Source: Escherichia coli (GTDB lineage Bacteria > Pseudomonadota > Gammaproteobacteria > Enterobacterales > Enterobacteriaceae). Taken from it: a stretch of 64,000 bases of DNA. The stretch is from NCBI RefSeq assembly GCF_003790525.1, contig NZ_CP033635.1; one strand, 5' to 3'. Both the position numbers and the translations under genes were made by a program. The notes beneath the pieces are model-generated. The model saw only the letters and a list, made by a program, of their open reading frames with translations, did not search any database and was not told the origin of the DNA. The stretch's first letter is position 1. Every line of letters begins with the position of its first letter. This document shows, piece after piece, positions 4,013 through 34,703 of the stretch.

Positions 4013-4155
4013 AGTTTGCTCCTGCCATAACGTGAAGAAGCAATGACCTGGTGGTCCGTGACTTCCCTACGCTGGCATTATCCAGATCAGGTGATACGGG
4101 TATTTCTCAGCCTTCACGCAGAAGGGCACCCCGAGTCGTTTGGTTGCGATGATAA
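4013..4155 (-). promoter_or_regulatory. TPP (THI-box) riboswitch in the thiM 5' leader
   Basis: Minus-strand sequence reads ...CGGGGTGCCCTTCTGCGTGAAGGCTGAGAAATACCCGTATCACCTGATCTGGATAATGCCAGCGTAGGGAA..., the classical thiM THI-box aptamer, directly upstream of the thiM start. Confidence 0.85.
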
Positions 4156-4234: not shown

Positions 4235-4507
4235 TTATTTGATATATGAATCCAGCACCTTCAGAACGACATCCAGATCTTCTTCACGTTTTAGCTCATC
4301 CCCCTGGTGAACGATGTGTTCCGTCAGATGACCTTTAATCACTTCCCGCATCAGACCGTTTACCGCGCCACGGATAGCAGCAATCTGTTGTAAAACTGCA
4401 GCGCATTCGTGCGGCTCGTCGAGCATTTTCTTGAGCGCCACGACCTGGCCCTGAATCTTACTGGCACGCGCTTTCAGTTTCTGTTTATCACGGATTGTAT
4501 GAGACAT
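4235..4507 (-). CDS. rcnR: Ni/Co-responsive transcriptional repressor (CsoR/RcnR family)
   Basis: 90-aa [24 protein letters not shown]...; divergent from rcnA. Confidence 0.9.
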
Positions 4508-4555
4508 GGCAACACCTGGTTAACAAGAATATGAAAAATCATAGCACTATTAATC

Positions 4556-4590
4556 TACTGGGGGGTAGTATCAGGTACTGGGGGGGAGTA
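4556..4590. promoter_or_regulatory. tandem RcnR operator sites (TACT-G6-N-AGTA) in the rcnR-rcnA divergent promoter
   Basis: Sequence TACTGGGGGGTAGTA (4556-4570) and TACTGGGGGGGAGTA (4576-4590) lie between the divergent rcnR and rcnA starts; matches the known RcnR recognition motif. Confidence 0.7.
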
Positions 4591-4627
4591 GAATCAGATT
4601 GCCGAATTAATACTAAGAATTATTATC

Positions 4628-5452
4628 ATGACCGAATTTACAACTCTTCTTCAGCAAGGAAACGCCTGGTTCTTCATCCCCAGCGCCATCTTACTTGGTG
4701 CGCTTCATGGCCTGGAACCAGGGCACTCAAAAACGATGATGGCGGCGTTTATCATCGCCATCAAAGGCACCATTAAACAGGCGGTGATGCTCGGACTGGC
4801 AGCAACCATTTCGCATACCGCGGTGGTCTGGTTGATTGCCTTTGGCGGGATGGTGATCAGTAAGCGCTTTACTGCTCAATCAGCAGAACCGTGGCTCCAG
4901 CTGATTTCCGCAGTGATCATTATTAGCACCGCGTTCTGGATGTTCTGGCGTACCTGGCGCGGCGAACGCAACTGGCTGGAGAATATGCACGGGCATGATT
5001 ATGAGCATCATCATCACGATCACGAAGATCACCACGACCATGGACATCATCACCATCACGAACATGGCGAGTATCAGGATGCCCATGCACGAGCCCATGC
5101 CAATGATATTAAACGACGCTTTGATGGTAGAGAGGTCACCAACTGGCAAATTTTGTTATTTGGCTTAACAGGTGGTCTTATCCCCTGTCCGGCAGCAATT
5201 ACCGTGCTGTTGATTTGCATTCAGTTGAAAGCCCTGACACTGGGCGCAACACTGGTCGTCAGTTTCAGCATTGGCCTGGCGTTAACGCTGGTCACCGTAG
5301 GCGTTGGCGCAGCAATCAGCGTTCAGCAGGTCGCAAAACGCTGGAGCGGATTTAACACTCTCGCTAAACGCGCCCCCTATTTTTCCAGTCTGTTGATTGG
5401 CTTAGTTGGTGTGTATATGGGCGTACATGGCTTCATGGGCATAATGCGATAA
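4628..5452 (+). CDS. rcnA: nickel/cobalt efflux permease
   Basis: 274-aa membrane protein with a histidine-rich loop (HDYEHHHHDHEDHHDHGHHHHHEH). Confidence 0.9.
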   Translation: MTEFTTLLQQGNAWFFIPSAILLGALHGLEPGHSKTMMAAFIIAIKGTIKQAVMLGLAATISHTAVVWLIAFGGMVISKRFTAQSAEPWLQLISAVIIISTAFWMFWRTWRGERNWLENMHGHDYEHHHHDHEDHHDHGHHHHHEHGEYQDAHARAHANDIKRRFDGREVTNWQILLFGLTGGLIPCPAAITVLLICIQLKALTLGATLVVSFSIGLALTLVTVGVGAAISVQQVAKRWSGFNTLAKRAPYFSSLLIGLVGVYMGVHGFMGIMR

Positions 5453-5670: not shown

Positions 5671-6009
5671 ATGACCATTAAAAATAAGATGTTGCTGGGT
5701 GTGCTTTTGCTGGTTACCAGTGCCGCCTGGGCCGCACCAGCCACCGCGGGTTCGACCAATACCTCGGGAATTTCTAAGTATGAGTTAAGTAGTTTCATTG
5801 CTGACTTTAAGCATTTCAAACCAGGTGATACCGTCCCAGAGATGTACCGCACCGATGAGTACAACATTAAGCAGTGGCAGTTACGTAACCTGCCCGCGCC
5901 TGATGCCGGGACGCACTGGACCTATATGGGTGGCGCGTACGTGTTGATCAGCGACACCGACGGTAAAATCATTAAAGCCTACGACGGTGAGATTTTTTAT
6001 CATCGCTAA
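5671..6009 (+). CDS. rcnB: periplasmic protein modulating Ni/Co efflux
   Basis: In-frame ATG at 5671 gives MTIKNKMLLGVLLLVTSAAWA... with a signal peptide; the longer ORF from 5491 is judged an upstream in-frame extension. Confidence 0.8.
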   Translation: MTIKNKMLLGVLLLVTSAAWAAPATAGSTNTSGISKYELSSFIADFKHFKPGDTVPEMYRTDEYNIKQWQLRNLPAPDAGTHWTYMGGAYVLISDTDGKIIKAYDGEIFYHR

Positions 6010-16715: not shown

Positions 16716-18054
16716 CATAAGCGCTAACTTAAGGGTTGTGGTATTACGCCTGATATGATTTAACGTGCCGATGAATTACTCTCACGATAACTGGTCAGCA
16801 ATTCTGGCCCATATTGGTAAGCCCGAAGAACTGGATACTTCGGCACGTAATGCCGGGGCTCTAACCCGCCGCCGCGAAATTCGTGATGCTGCAACTCTGC
16901 TACGTCTGGGGCTGGCTTACGGCCCCGGGGGGATGTCATTACGTGAAGTCACTGCATGGGCTCAGCTCCATGACGTTGCAACATTATCTGACGTGGCTCT
17001 CCTGAAGCGGCTGCGGAATGCCGCCGACTGGTTTGGCATACTTGCCGCACAAACACTTGCTGTACGCGCCGCAGTTACGGGTTGTACAAGCGGAAAGAGA
17101 TTGCGTCTTGTCGATGGAACAGCAATCAGTGCGCCCGGGGGCGGCAGCGCTGAATGGCGACTACATATGGGATATGATCCTCATACCTGTCAGTTCACTG
17201 ATTTTGAGCTAACCGACAGCAGAGACGCTGAACGGCTGGACCGATTTGCGCAAACGGCAGACGAGATACGCATTGCTGACCGGGGATTCGGTTCGCGTCC
17301 CGAATGTATCCGCTCACTTGCTTTTGGAGAAGCTGATTATATCGTCCGGGTTCACTGGCGAGGATTGCGCTGGTTAACTGCAGAAGGAATGCGCTTTGAC
17401 ATGATGGGTTTTCTGCGCGGGCTGGATTGCGGTAAGAACGGTGAAACCACTGTAATGATAGGCAATTCAGGTAATAAAAAAGCCGGAGCTCCCTTTCCGG
17501 CACGTCTCATTGCCGTATCACTTCCTCCCGAAAAAGCATTAATCAGTAAAACCCGACTGCTCAGCGAGAATCGTCGAAAAGGACGAGTAGTTCAGGCGGA
17601 AACGCTGGAAGCAGCGGGCCATGTGCTATTGCTAACATCATTACCGGAAGATGAATATTCAGCAGAGCAAGTGGCTGATTGTTACCGTCTGCGATGGCAA
17701 ATTGAACTGGCTTTTAAGCGGCTCAAAAGTTTGCTGCACCTGGATGCTTTGCGTGCAAAGGAACCTGAACTCGCGAAAGCGTGGATATTTGCTAATCTAC
17801 TCGCCGCATTTTTAATTGACGACATAATCCAGCCATCGCTGGATTTCCCCCCCAGAAGTGCCGGATCCGAAAAGAAGAACTAACTCGTTGTGGAGAATAA
17901 CAAAAATGGTCATCTGGAGCTTACAGGTGGCCATTCGTGGGACAGTATCCCTGACAGCCTACAAAACGCAATTGAAGAACGCGAGGCATCGTCTTAACGA
18001 GGCACCGAGGCGTCGCATTCTTCAGATGGTTCAACCCTTAAGTTAGCGCTTATG
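16716..18054 (+). mobile_element. IS186 (IS4 family) insertion sequence, 1339 bp, perfect 23-bp terminal inverted repeats, flanked by a 10-bp target duplication
   Basis: Left end CATAAGCGCTAACTTAAGGGTTG (16716-16738) is the exact inverted complement of the right end (18032-18054); direct repeat AGTAGTCTCC at 16706-16715 and 18055-18064. Confidence 0.85.
16771..17883 (+). CDS. insL: IS186 transposase (DDE, IS4 family)
   Basis: 370-aa product MNYSHDNWSAILAHIGKPEEL... recognised as the IS186 transposase; lies between the terminal inverted repeats. Confidence 0.85.
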   Translation: MNYSHDNWSAILAHIGKPEELDTSARNAGALTRRREIRDAATLLRLGLAYGPGGMSLREVTAWAQLHDVATLSDVALLKRLRNAADWFGILAAQTLAVRAAVTGCTSGKRLRLVDGTAISAPGGGSAEWRLHMGYDPHTCQFTDFELTDSRDAERLDRFAQTADEIRIADRGFGSRPECIRSLAFGEADYIVRVHWRGLRWLTAEGMRFDMMGFLRGLDCGKNGETTVMIGNSGNKKAGAPFPARLIAVSLPPEKALISKTRLLSENRRKGRVVQAETLEAAGHVLLLTSLPEDEYSAEQVADCYRLRWQIELAFKRLKSLLHLDALRAKEPELAKAWIFANLLAAFLIDDIIQPSLDFPPRSAGSEKKN

Positions 18055-20338
18055 AGTAGTCTCCCCTCCCTGGCTTTCGAAAAAGAAAAAATCGCCGATT
18101 CCGGTGCTGGATTTAGCGCCATTAGGCATTGAGCCAATCTGTTATCTGACAGAAGAAATCAGTAATCAACTTTTGGCGAAATATATCTGGTATTCAAAAC
18201 ACATCACGGTTAGCCATGAAGAAAGTACTACCAACCTGTTGGCAAGGATGGGTTTTCAACGACGGATCGCTGGTACATATATTAAAGCTCCCGAAGCGGT
18301 AGTTGAGGCATGGCTAAATGAAGATTATTCAACCTTACTAAGTGAATTTAAGGTGTTTCATTCACCTACCGGGCATTATTGGCAGTTGGGGATTTTGACA
18401 ACATTGCCGCTGGAGAAAGCAGTAAAAGCATGGAATGCCCTTACCCTATCTCCACATACCGATACCGAATACTCCATGTTACATTTTGGACTCAAAGGGT
18501 TACCTGGGTTAGTAAACTCACTTGCACGCTATCCACAAGAAGCCTTGCCCATCACGAATTACTTCGCAGCGAGTGAGCTGGCTCCTGCCGTCGCCCGTGC
18601 CTTCAACAAACTGAAAACGCTACGCGAAAACGCCCGTAGCTGGCTGTTGAAATACCCGGAACATGCCCTTACCGGCCTGCTGCCTGCGGCGCTCGGCAAA
18701 GCCGGTGAAGCACAGGATAACGCCCGCGCTGCCTTGCGTATGCTTACCGAAAACGGTCATCAGCCATTACTGCAAGAAATCGCCCGACGTTATAACCAGC
18801 CGGAAGTAACCGATGCGGTGAACGCTCTGCTTGCGCTCGATCCCTTAGATAATCACCCGACAAAAATCCCCACTCTTCCGGCCTTTTATCAGCCATCGCT
18901 CTGGACGCGCCCGGTATTAAAAGCAAATGCCCAATCACTGCCAGATAGCGCCCTCCTCCACCTCGGTGAAATGCTCCGCTTCCCTCAGGAAGAGGCTCTG
19001 TATCCGGGATTATTGCAGGTGAAAGACGTCTGTTCCGCCGACTCACTGGCGGGATTTGCCTGGGATCTGTTTACCGCCTGGCAGACCGCTGGCGCGCCGT
19101 CGAAAGAGAGTTGGGCGTTCACTGCGTTAGGCGTTCTCGGTAACGATGACACCGCCCGCAAACTGACGCCATTAATACGCGCCTGGCCTGGTGAATCCCA
19201 GCATAAACGCGCCACCGTTGGGTTGGATATTCTCGCTGCTATCGGTAGTGATATCGCCCTTATGCAGCTTAACGGCATCGCCCAGAAACTGAAATTCAAA
19301 GCATTACAGGAGCGGGCAAAAGAAAAAATTGCCGACATTGCCGAGAGCCGCGAACTCACGGTGGCGGAGCTTGAAGATCGGTTAGCACCGGATCTCGGTC
19401 TGGATGATAACGGTTCGCTGCTGCTGGATTTTGGCCCACGGCAGTTCACCGTCAGCTTTGATGAAACCTTAAAACCGTTTGTGCGTGATGTTTCCGGCAG
19501 CCGCCTGAAAGACCTGCCCAAACCGAACAAAAGCGATGATGAAACGCGGGCGAACGATGCGGTTAACCGCTACAAATTGCTGAAAAAAGATGCGCGTACC
19601 ATCGCCGCCCAGCAGGTAGCAAGGCTGGAATCCGCCATGTGCCTGCGCCGCCGCTGGTCGCTGGAAAACTTCCAGCTCTTCCTGGTTGAGCATCCGCTGG
19701 TTCGTCACTTAACCCGCCGTCTGATTTGGGGCGTTTATAGCGCCGAAAACCAGCTACTGGCTTGCTTTCGCGTAGCAGAAGATAACAGCTCCAGCACCGC
19801 TGACGATGATCTTTTCACCCTGCCGGAAGGCGATATCTCTATCGGCACTCCTCACGTTCTGGAAATATCACCAACGGATGCTGCCGCCTTTGGTCAGCTT
19901 TTTGCCGACTACGAACTGCTACCACCGTTCCGCCAGCTCGACCGTAACAGCTACGCCCTGACAGAAGCCGAGCGCAATGCCAGTGAACTGACCCGCTGGG
20001 CAGGCAGAAAATGCCCGAGTGGTCGGGTCATGGGGCTGGCGAATAAAGGCTGGATAAAGGGCGAACCACAGGATGGAGGCTGGATCGGATGGATGATCAA
20101 ACCTTTGGGTCGCTGGTCGTTAATCATGGAAATCGATGAAGGCTTTGCGGTAGGCATGTCGCCAGCCGAACTCAGCGCTGAGCAGCTCTTAAGCAAGCTG
20201 TGGCTATGGGAAGGCAAAGCAGAAAGATATGGCTGGGGGAGTAATTCAACACAGGAAGCGCAGTTCTCCGTAATCGATGCCATCACCGCCAGCGAGCTAA
20301 TTAACGATATTGAAGCCCTGTTTGAATAAGGAAAGAGC

Positions 20339-33021: not shown

Positions 33022-34703
33022 GCCTCGTCCCTCCATGGTAGTCGTAACGTTATTCGGGTGTAACTATCAGGCTCACAGGCGACGCTTATTCCATAGTCAT
33101 CGCCAAACCGTTCACGTAAACGCTTATCCACCAGATTCATCCCCAGCCCACTGGCATTGGTTACCGGTTGATACAAACCGGCATTGTCTTCGATCTCCAG
33201 CATCAAATGTTGCCCCTCACGTCGGGCGCTGATTGCCACTCGCCCTGTATCCAGCAGTTGTGATGTCCCATGTTTAATGGCGTTTTCCACTATCGGTTGC
33301 AGGGTAAACGCGGGCAATTGCTGCTGGGATAATTCTTGCGGAATAGCAATGTTGACCTGCAACCGCGACTGGAAGCGCGCCTTTTCAATTTGCAGATAAG
33401 CATTCACATGTTCAATTTCGTCGGCGAGAGTAACAAACTCCGAAGGCCGCTTTAAGTTTTTGCGGAAAAAAGTGGAAAGATACTGCACCAGCTGGCTGGC
33501 CTGTTCGCTGTCGCGGCGGATCACCGCTTTAATGGTGTTAAGCGCATTAAACAAAAAATGGGGATTCACCTGGGCGTGAAGCAGTTTGATCTCTGACTGG
33601 GTGAGCATCGCTTTTTGCCGCTCATATTGCCCGGCAAGGATCTGCGCCGAAAGCAATTGCGCAATCCCCTCACCCAACGTGCGGTTGATTGAACTGAATA
33701 AACGGTTTTTGGCTTCATACAATTTGATGGTGCCCATCACCCGCTGATTTTCACCACGCAACGGAATTACCAGCGTCGACCCCAGTTTGCATTGCGGATG
33801 CAAAGAGCAACGGTAAGGTACTTCGTTGCCATCAGCGTAGACCACTTCACCGGTTTCAATCGCTTTTAAAGTATAAGTTGAAGAAATCGGTTTGCCGGGT
33901 AAATGGTGGTCGTCACCAATTCCGGTAAAGGCCAGCAATTTCTCTCGATCGGTAATCGCGACTGCACCAATATCCAGTTCCTGATACAGCACCTGAGCCA
34001 CTTTCATGCTGTTCTCTTCGTTAAACCCCTGGCGCAAAATGCCTTCCGTCGAGGCTGCCACTTTCAGCGCAGTGGCAGAAAAAGCCGAAGTGTATTTTTC
34101 AAACATCGCGCGTTTATCGAGCAATATACGCATAAACAGCGCCGCGCCGACGGTATTGGTGACCATCATTGGCGCAGCAATATTACTCACCAGACGCACC
34201 GCATCTTCATAAGGTCGGGCGATCGCAAGGATGATCAGCATTTGCACCATTTCAGCGACGAACGTGACGGCACCGGCGGTAATGGGGTTAAAGACTTTAT
34301 CAGTGCGCCCGCGGCGGATCAGGATGCTGTGTACCAGGCCACCGAGTAATCCTTCAACGATGGTCGAGATCATGCAACTTAACGCGGTCATGCCCCCCAT
34401 CGAATATCGATGTAAGCCGCCGGTCAGCCCAACCAGCCCACCGACGACCGGACCGCCGAGTAAGCCGCCCATTACCGCGCCTATCGCACGGGTATTGGCA
34501 ATAGAATCGTCAATGTGCAACCCAAACCAGGTGCCCATGATGCAGAAGATGGAAAAGACGATGTAGCAGAGAAATTTATGCGGCAGACGAACCGTGACCT
34601 GCATTAACGGTATGAATAATGGCGTTTTACTCATTAACCATGCAATGACTAAAAAAACGCACATCTGCTGAAGCAGCAGCAACACCAGATTAAAATCGTA
34701 CAT
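33018..34703 (-). CDS. btsS: LytS-type sensor histidine kinase (pyruvate-sensing BtsS/YehU)
   Basis: 561-aa multi-TM N-terminus, GAF and histidine kinase regions ([14 protein letters not shown]). Confidence 0.9.

What the first reader, a model, noticed from the sequence alone, without database searches (positions are those of the whole stretch)
4556..4590. Tandem G-tract inverted repeats in the rcnR-rcnA intergenic region
Two near-identical TACT-G6/7-N-AGTA sites 5 bp apart sit between the divergent rcnR and rcnA starts, matching the known RcnR operator. The poly-G tracts are unusual and could in principle act as slippage-prone sequences.
Basis: partly seen in the sequence, partly recalled or inferred. 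Interest (0 to 1): 0.25.

Follow-up and report, generated by a model that had tools for sequence, protein, structure and literature searches.

The report
Known RcnR nickel/cobalt repressor operator
The two G-rich inverted repeats between rcnR and rcnA are the published binding sites of the nickel/cobalt-sensing repressor RcnR in E. coli; they are ordinary and already characterised, and their G-runs are held at a fixed length rather than acting as a slippage switch.

Summary
TACTGGGGGGTAGTA lies at 4556-4570 and TACTGGGGGGGAGTA at 4576-4590, 5 bp apart, between divergent rcnR (4235-4507, -) and rcnA (4628-5452, +). Both fit the published RcnR operator TACT-G6-N-AGTA, of which two copies are reported in this intergenic region. 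The stretch is identical to E. coli K-12.

Published transcription start sites map to window 4601 and 4580 (rcnA) and 4530 (rcnR). The sites therefore cover the core of the rcnA promoter and the -35 region and upstream DNA of the rcnR promoter.

Across 80 species, 153 of 158 sites keep a 7-nt gap between ACT and AGT. The sites carry about 1.95-1.99 bits per position, against 0.4-0.5 in the flanks.

The slippage idea is only weakly supported. About 82% of 5,345 E. coli genomes carry the exact 90-nt sequence and at most about 5% show a ±1 G-run change. These changes are mostly in the G7 run, and several carriers are O111 or O121:H19 strains. That rate is higher than at a coding C6 control (0.37%), but the tract is not hypervariable.

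Verdict: already known, low interest.

The parts
4556..4570 (+). RcnR operator site 1, TACT-G6-T-AGTA. It lies at -45 to -31 of the major rcnA start and -26 to -40 of the rcnR start.
   Evidence: for the sequence. for the published consensus; 1.95 bits per position across 64 species.
4571..4575 (+). 5-bp spacer TCAGG. Its length is conserved and its sequence is not, except for a leading T.
   Evidence: 69 of 79 neighbouring site pairs are 20 bp start-to-start; spacer 0.95 bits per position.
4576..4590 (+). RcnR operator site 2, TACT-G7-AGTA (that is, G6 with N=G). It lies at -25 to -11 of the major rcnA start and -46 to -60 of the rcnR start.
   Evidence: 1.99 bits per position.
4589..4594 (+). 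Inferred -10 hexamer TAGAAT of the major rcnA promoter. It overlaps the last two bases of site 2.
   Evidence: The published TSS at window 4601 puts this hexamer at -12 to -7. A TAnnnT hexamer sits at this position in 62 of 64 species.
4601..4601 (+). Major rcnA transcription start (25 reads; 27-nt leader).
   Evidence: Kim et al. 2012 supplement, NC_000913.2 position 2183912, mapped by exact 51-mer match.
4580..4580 (+). Minor rcnA transcription start (12 reads). It is the first G of the G7 run.
   Evidence: Kim et al. 2012 supplement, position 2183891.
4538..4546 (-). Inferred extended -10 element TGcTATGAT of the rcnR promoter.
   Evidence: The published rcnR TSS maps to window 4530 on the - strand. 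The hexamer assignment is my inference from that position.
4530..4530 (-). rcnR transcription start (11 reads; 23-nt leader).
   Evidence: Kim et al. 2012 supplement, position 2183841.
4235..4507 (-). rcnR, the Ni(II)/Co(II)-responsive repressor that binds the sites.
   Evidence: NF011613, 197 bits, full length. RefSeq annotation.
4628..5452 (+). rcnA, the Ni/Co efflux pump, which is the repressed target.
   Evidence: NF007454, 558 bits..
5671..6009 (+). rcnB, the accessory periplasmic subunit, downstream of rcnA.
   Evidence: RefSeq annotation at colinear K-12 coordinates.

Best explanation
These are the two tandem type-1 operator sites of RcnR, a CsoR/RcnR-family metal sensor. Metal-free RcnR tetramers bind each TACT-G6-N-AGTA site. 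The AT-rich inverted half-sites are contacted in the minor groove, and the unbroken G-run gives the DNA an A-like shape that is read indirectly (published). The sites lie at -45 to -31 and -25 to -11 of the main rcnA start. They lie at -26 to -40 and -46 to -60 of the divergent rcnR start. Occupied sites therefore block RNA polymerase at rcnA and also repress rcnR itself. That it works by occlusion is my inference from the positions; that both genes are repressed through a shared operator is published. Ni(II) or Co(II) binding releases RcnR, and the RcnAB efflux system is expressed. The G-runs are a structural part of the operator, and their length is under purifying selection. They are not a slippage switch.
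For: The sequence matches the published consensus exactly at both sites (literature). It is identical to the K-12 sequence on which the published work was done (H36 DH10B, 100% over 95 nt; exact 51-mer matches to MG1655). The neighbouring genes are rcnR and rcnA. The published TSS coordinates place both promoters over or next to the sites. Among 80 species from Escherichia to Vibrio, 79 loci have at least one site and 61 have exactly two. 153 of 158 sites keep the 7-nt inner spacing, and 69 of 79 adjacent pairs keep the 20-bp register. Information content is 1.95 and 1.99 bits in the sites against 0.41 and 0.54 in the flanks. The same tandem operator travels with rcnR-rcnA on an IncHI2 plasmid. 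A 62%-identical Ralstonia homologue has a single TACT-AG6-AGTA site.
Against: No result argues against the operator assignment. Three caveats apply. I could not read Iwig & Chivers 2009 or Blaha et al. 2011 directly, so the binding data are taken from papers that cite them. The -10 and -35 assignments are inferred from TSS positions, and the -35-like hexamer TAGTAT is poor. The TSS read counts are low (11-25).
Confidence: 0.96

Rival explanations
1. The G-runs are slippage-prone simple repeats that act as a contingency (phase-variation) switch. Gain or loss of a G would change operator geometry. Because the G7 run lies between the -35-like and -10 hexamers of the rcnA promoter, it would also change the spacer from 17 bp to 16 or 18 bp, toggling efflux expression.
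For: All five single-base indels inspected in the intergenic region fall in the G-runs. Among 5,345 E. coli genomes the counts for variants written [site 1 run, site 2 run] are: [6,6] 60-118, [6,8] 25-93, [7,7] 25-27 and [5,7] 17. The longer run varies more. The rate exceeds that of a coding C6 control in btsS: 4 of 1,081 (0.37%) against about 0.95% at site 1 (p about 0.05) and 1.9-4.6% at site 2 (p<1e-4). Strains labelled O111 recur among the G6 carriers and strains labelled O121/O121:H19 among the G8 carriers, from several laboratories. This suggests real, inherited alleles.
Against: The runs are only 6-7 nt, shorter than typical contingency tracts (my knowledge). 82% of genomes have the exact 90-mer and at most about 5% differ in run length. 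Across 80 species, 97% of sites keep the same inner length, and substitutions inside the run preserve the spacing. The scattered ±1 calls are not independent events, and some could be homopolymer errors in long-read or 454 assemblies. No G7 coding control was available in the window.
Confidence: 0.03
2. The G-runs form a G-quadruplex or other non-B DNA or RNA structure that regulates transcription independently of RcnR.
For: Two G-runs lie on the same strand 13 nt apart. Published circular dichroism shows A-like character for the operator.
Against: There are only two G-runs, so a stable three-tetrad quadruplex would need four. The region lies upstream of the major rcnA start (4601) and of the rcnR start (4530), so it is largely untranscribed. 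The conserved flanking TACT/AGTA half-sites are explained by protein binding, not by a quadruplex.
Confidence: 0.01

Closest known systems
E. coli K-12 RcnR operator (tandem type-1 CsoR/RcnR-family sites, TACT-G6-N-AGTA; Iwig & Chivers 2009; Blaha et al. 2011)
   Same: The sequence, position, spacing and flanking genes are identical. The window matches K-12 at 100% over the operator and its flanks.
   Different: Nothing differs at the operator. The window is a non-K-12 E. coli strain, about 99.2% identical elsewhere.
Type-2 CsoR operators (for example Streptomyces lividans and B. subtilis CsoR)
   Same: They are G/C-tract pseudopalindromes with AT-rich GTA-containing dyads. They are bound by tetrameric all-helical repressors, and recognition depends on A-like DNA shape.
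   Different: Type-2 sites have two short G/C tracts separated by 2-4 bases, about 11 bp between the inverted repeats, and bind two tetramers per site. Here there is one unbroken G6/G7 run, 7 nt between half-sites, and one tetramer per site.
Homopolymer tracts in promoter spacers of phase-variable genes (for example Neisseria porA/opc and Bordetella fim; from my knowledge)
   Same: A G-run lies between the -35-like and -10 elements of rcnA, so a ±1 change would alter spacer length.
   Different: The tract is short (7 nt). Its length is conserved within and between species. It serves as a repressor recognition element.

Membership tests
RcnR operator (type-1 CsoR/RcnR-family site) | TACT and AGTA inverted half-sites flanking an unbroken G6 run plus one base (7-nt inner segment) | tested here: met
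   Both sites match with 0 mismatches.
RcnR operator (type-1 CsoR/RcnR-family site) | Two tandem copies in the divergent rcnR-rcnA intergenic region | tested here: met
   The sites are at 4556-4570 and 4576-4590, between rcnR (ends at 4507) and rcnA (starts at 4628).
RcnR operator (type-1 CsoR/RcnR-family site) | The adjacent gene encodes an RcnR orthologue | tested here: met
   NF011613 equivalog, 197 bits against a cutoff of 138, full length. RefSeq protein WP_000019944.1.
RcnR operator (type-1 CsoR/RcnR-family site) | Overlap with the regulated promoters | tested here: met
   Published TSSs map to 4601, 4580 and 4530. The sites cover -45 to -11 of rcnA and -26 to -60 of rcnR.
RcnR operator (type-1 CsoR/RcnR-family site) | Evolutionary conservation of the site with the gene pair | tested here: met
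   79 of 80 species loci have at least one site. 153 of 158 sites have the 7-nt inner spacing. The site is also present on an IncHI2 plasmid.
RcnR operator (type-1 CsoR/RcnR-family site) | Direct, metal-reversible binding of RcnR to this DNA | not testable with these tools
   Published for the identical K-12 sequence, as cited. The primary paper is not held.
Simple-sequence contingency (phase-variation) locus | Frequent tract-length polymorphism among closely related strains | tested here: not met
   82% of genomes have the exact 90-mer and at most about 5% have a ±1 change. O111- and O121-labelled strains recur among the carriers.
Simple-sequence contingency (phase-variation) locus | Tract length unconstrained between species | tested here: not met
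   97% of 158 sites in 80 species have the same inner length.
Simple-sequence contingency (phase-variation) locus | Indel rate elevated over comparable tracts elsewhere | tested here: inconclusive
   Site 1 shows 0.95% against 0.37% at the coding C6 control (p about 0.05). Site 2 shows 1.9-4.6%, but no G7 control exists, and clonal inheritance and assembly errors confound the counts.
Simple-sequence contingency (phase-variation) locus | Reversible ON/OFF expression | not testable with these tools
   This needs reporter assays.
G-quadruplex-forming element | Four or more G-runs within a short span on one strand | tested here: not met
   Only two G-runs are present at 4560-4565 and 4580-4586.

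The most novel reading that the evidence does not exclude
Rare natural alleles of the operator may act as heritable tuning mutations. They would shift the Ni/Co efflux set-point in particular lineages by changing both RcnR site geometry and the rcnA promoter spacer length. The alleles seen are G7 to G6 in strains labelled O111 and a few O157:H7 strains, G7 to G8 in strains labelled O121/O121:H19, and 20-bp or 23-bp duplications that create a third site in strains 8E and WW2. The three-site form echoes the fixed three-site arrangement in Kosakonia and Phytobacter.
Probability: 0.12. Interest if true: 0.35.

Novelty: already known. Interest (0 to 1): 0.1.

Why it matters
This is the textbook control element of nickel/cobalt efflux in E. 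coli, and it is already used as a part in cobalt-inducible expression circuits. Confirming it adds nothing new in kind. Two modest additions come from this work. First, the 7-nt inner spacing and the 20-bp register are nearly invariant across Enterobacterales and on IncHI2 plasmids, which supports shape- and spacing-based recognition. Second, there is now a small catalogue of natural ±1 and three-site alleles that could be used to test how G-run length affects RcnR binding.

Tried and rejected
- **Primary paper:** reading Iwig & Chivers 2009 directly failed because it is not held. I relied on citing papers instead.
- **Promoter scan:** the consensus scan proposed TTGCCG/TATTAT for rcnA and TTAACC/TACAAT for rcnR. 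Neither fits the published TSSs, so both were rejected.
- **rcnR -10 guess:** my first guess was TAGATT overlapping site 1. It was rejected in favour of the extended -10 TGcTATGAT once the TSS at 4530 was found.
- **G7 control:** the only other 7-run in the window (C7 at 17847-17853) lies in an IS4-family transposase and is unsuitable. I used a coding C6 in btsS instead.
- **Counting limits:** the '>=99% identity' band can include non-full-length 100% alignments. In one search the band held 26 records but only 17 were full-length exact. Variant counts are therefore given as ranges.
- **G-quadruplex reading:** rejected from the sequence, because only two G-runs are present.

Full report
**Observation.**
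The sequence is exactly as described. TACTGGGGGGTAGTA lies at 4556-4570, followed by TCAGG, then TACTGGGGGGGAGTA at 4576-4590. The repeat finder reports these as one direct-repeat family of two 15-nt copies, 93% identical and 20 bp start-to-start. The pattern TACTGGGGGGNAGTA has two exact matches in the 64-kb window. With up to two mismatches there are three matches against 0.14 expected, and no shuffle reached three. Only ten G/C runs of 6 or more exist in the window, and two of them lie here.

The flanking ORFs are rcnR (4235-4507, minus strand; NF011613, 197 bits against a cutoff of 138) and rcnA (4628-5452, plus strand; NF007454, 558 bits). RefSeq annotation of colinear E. coli records agrees and adds rcnB downstream.

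**What it is.**
The literature held in the library is explicit. [quoted passage not shown] The operator is described as a tandem of two type-1 CsoR/RcnR-family sites, with one tetramer bound per site. Binding involves minor-groove contacts at the TACT/AGTA repeats, and the unbroken G-tract is read through its A-form-like shape (PMC3902906; PMC7105576). All of these cite Iwig & Chivers 2009 and Blaha et al. 2011, which I could not open.

The window is 100% identical to K-12 DH10B over 95 nt around the operator (H36). It also contains exact copies of three 51-mers from MG1655. The published binding data therefore apply to this very sequence.

**How it sits on the promoters.**
A genome-wide TSS study (Kim et al. 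2012, PMC3415461, supplement file 2) lists the following starts:
- an rcnR start at NC_000913.2 position 2183841 (minus strand, 23-nt leader, 11 reads);
- an rcnA start at 2183891 (48-nt leader, 12 reads);
- an rcnA start at 2183912 (27-nt leader, 25 reads).

Exact matching of the listed upstream 51-mers maps these to window 4530 (minus), 4580 and 4601.

Relative to the major rcnA start at 4601, site 1 covers -45 to -31 and site 2 covers -25 to -11. The hexamer TAGAAT (4589-4594) sits at -12 to -7 and overlaps the AGTA of site 2. A TAnnnT hexamer is present at that position in 62 of 64 species.

Relative to the rcnR start, TGcTATGAT (4546 to 4538, minus strand) reads as an extended -10 element. 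Site 1 lies at -26 to -40 and site 2 at -46 to -60.

Repression of rcnA, and autoregulation of rcnR, by polymerase occlusion is my inference from these positions. Repression of both genes through a shared operator is the published conclusion (title of Blaha et al. 2011, cited). The generic promoter scan gave hits that do not fit the mapped starts, and I disregard them.

**Conservation.**
A scan of one genome per species returned 80 loci encoding RcnR relatives at 76-100% identity, from Escherichia to Morganella and Vibrio.
- **Sites per locus.** 61 loci have two sites. Nine have three, in Kosakonia, Phytobacter and relatives, with an extra AACT-G7-AGTT upstream. Nine have one, including Morganella, Edwardsiella anguillarum and Erwinia psidii. 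One has none.
- **Inner spacing.** Of 158 sites, 153 have exactly 7 nt between ACT and AGT. Substitutions inside the run (AGGGGGT, GGGGGAT, GGGAGGT, CGGGGGT) preserve that spacing.
- **Register.** 69 of 79 neighbouring pairs keep the 20-bp register.
- **The 'N' position.** It is site-specific: T in the site nearer rcnR and G in the site nearer rcnA.
- **Orientation.** All G-runs found lie on the rcnA coding strand.
- **Information content.** It is 1.95 and 1.99 bits per position in the sites, against 0.41 and 0.54 in the flanks and 0.95 in the spacer.

The same tandem operator accompanies a 92%-identical rcnR on an IncHI2 mcr plasmid. About 411 plasmids carry an rcnR of that identity class. 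A 62%-identical Ralstonia homologue, divergent from rcnA, has a single TACT-AGGGGGG-AGTA site. A 58%-identical Halomonas homologue upstream of dmeF has two degenerate 7-nt-spaced sites 24 bp apart.

**The slippage idea.**
I measured G-run length variation in 5,426 complete E. coli genomes using 90-nt queries (window 4531-4620) carrying each variant. Variants are written [site 1 run, site 2 run].

| Variant | Genomes with exact match |
|---|---|
| [6,7] reference | 4,387 of 5,345 matching genomes (82%) |
| [6,6] | 60-118 |
| [6,8] | 25-93 |
| [7,7] | 25-27 |
| [5,7] | 17 |

The ranges arise because the '>=99%' identity band can include non-full-length 100% alignments.

Every single-base indel I inspected falls in a G-run: E15, DTU-1, O111 SF4-1, 51008369SK1 and SCPM-O-B-9504.

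As a baseline I used a coding C6 run in btsS (34393-34398). It gave 1,077 reference matches and 2 + 2 variants, or 0.37%. Site 1 shows about 0.95% (Fisher p about 0.05-0.06). Site 2 shows 1.9-4.6% (p<1e-4).

Some of the variation looks inherited rather than erroneous. Strains labelled O111 from several laboratories carry G6, and strains labelled O121 or O121:H19 carry G8. Other carriers are scattered, including K-12 derivatives such as ER2683. These could be assembly errors or new mutations, and that cannot be settled without the reads.

The G7 run lies between TAGTAT (4566-4571) and TAGAAT (4589-4594). A ±1 change would therefore also alter the presumed promoter spacer from 17 bp to 16 or 18 bp.

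Overall the G-runs are the indel hot spots of this region, and a few ±1 alleles persist. However, the length is fixed in about 95% of strains and 97% of sites across species. This indicates purifying selection on operator geometry, not a contingency switch.

**Comparison and verdict.**
The element meets every sequence-level criterion of the published RcnR operator. Direct binding cannot be tested here but is published for the identical sequence. It fails the tests for a phase-variable simple-sequence locus and for a G-quadruplex element.

It is already known and of low interest. The only modestly new material is the cross-species rule (7-nt inner spacing and 20-bp register) and the catalogue of natural ±1 and three-site alleles.

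Noticed in passing
window 4614-4628: A second conserved element, the palindrome TAAGAATTATTATCA, abuts the rcnA ATG. It appears as (A/G)AGAATnATT(C/A)TC in most Enterobacteriaceae and on the IncHI2 plasmid. By my recollection it matches the Fur 7-1-7 box TGATAATnATTATCA at 12 of 14 positions. rcnA is listed in the Fur-2 iModulon (PMC10164565), and Koch et al. 2007 link RcnRA to iron.
   Followed up: partly
L011 (Escherichia whittamii) 1380-1440; window 4508-4521 and 4658-4671: In the E. whittamii representative genome the rcnR start codon is fused directly to rcnA codon 10 or so. This is a 150-bp deletion between two 14-nt imperfect direct repeats (GGCAACACCTGGTT and GGAAACGCCTGGTT). It removes the operator, both promoters and the rcnA start. 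It rests on a single assembly and has not been verified.
   Followed up: partly
L001 (E. coli WW2) 401-543; L089 (E. coli O111:H8 8E) 1583-1721: Natural duplications create a third RcnR site. In WW2 a 23-bp duplication repeats site 2. In 8E a 20-bp duplication repeats site 1, on a G6 site-2 background. Kosakonia and Phytobacter carry a fixed third site, AACT-G7-AGTT.
   Followed up: partly
L003 (E. coli ETEC4085) about 512-912: An IS5-family element is inserted a few bases upstream of the rcnA start codon, leaving the operator intact but separating it from rcnA.
   Followed up: no
window 4580: The minor published rcnA TSS is the first G of the G7 run. A start inside a homopolymer could allow reiterative transcription. 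This is untested and the read support is low.
   Followed up: no
window 16716-18055 and 49380-50765: There are two insertions relative to K-12 DH10B. The first carries a 372-aa IS4-family transposase ORF (16765-17883; NF033592, 133 bits) and lies inside the DUF4132 (molR-like) pseudogene region. The second was not examined. Elsewhere the window is about 99.2% identical to K-12, so it comes from a different E. coli strain.
   Followed up: partly
window 4047-4143 (- strand): A TPP riboswitch upstream of thiM-thiD lies just downstream of rcnR, according to RefSeq annotation at colinear coordinates.
   Followed up: no
window 4530: The commonest E. coli polymorphism near the operator is T to C at 4530, seen for example in O157:H7. 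It coincides with the mapped rcnR TSS. Leaving this position out of the query raised the exact-match count from 3,736 to 4,387 genomes.
   Followed up: no
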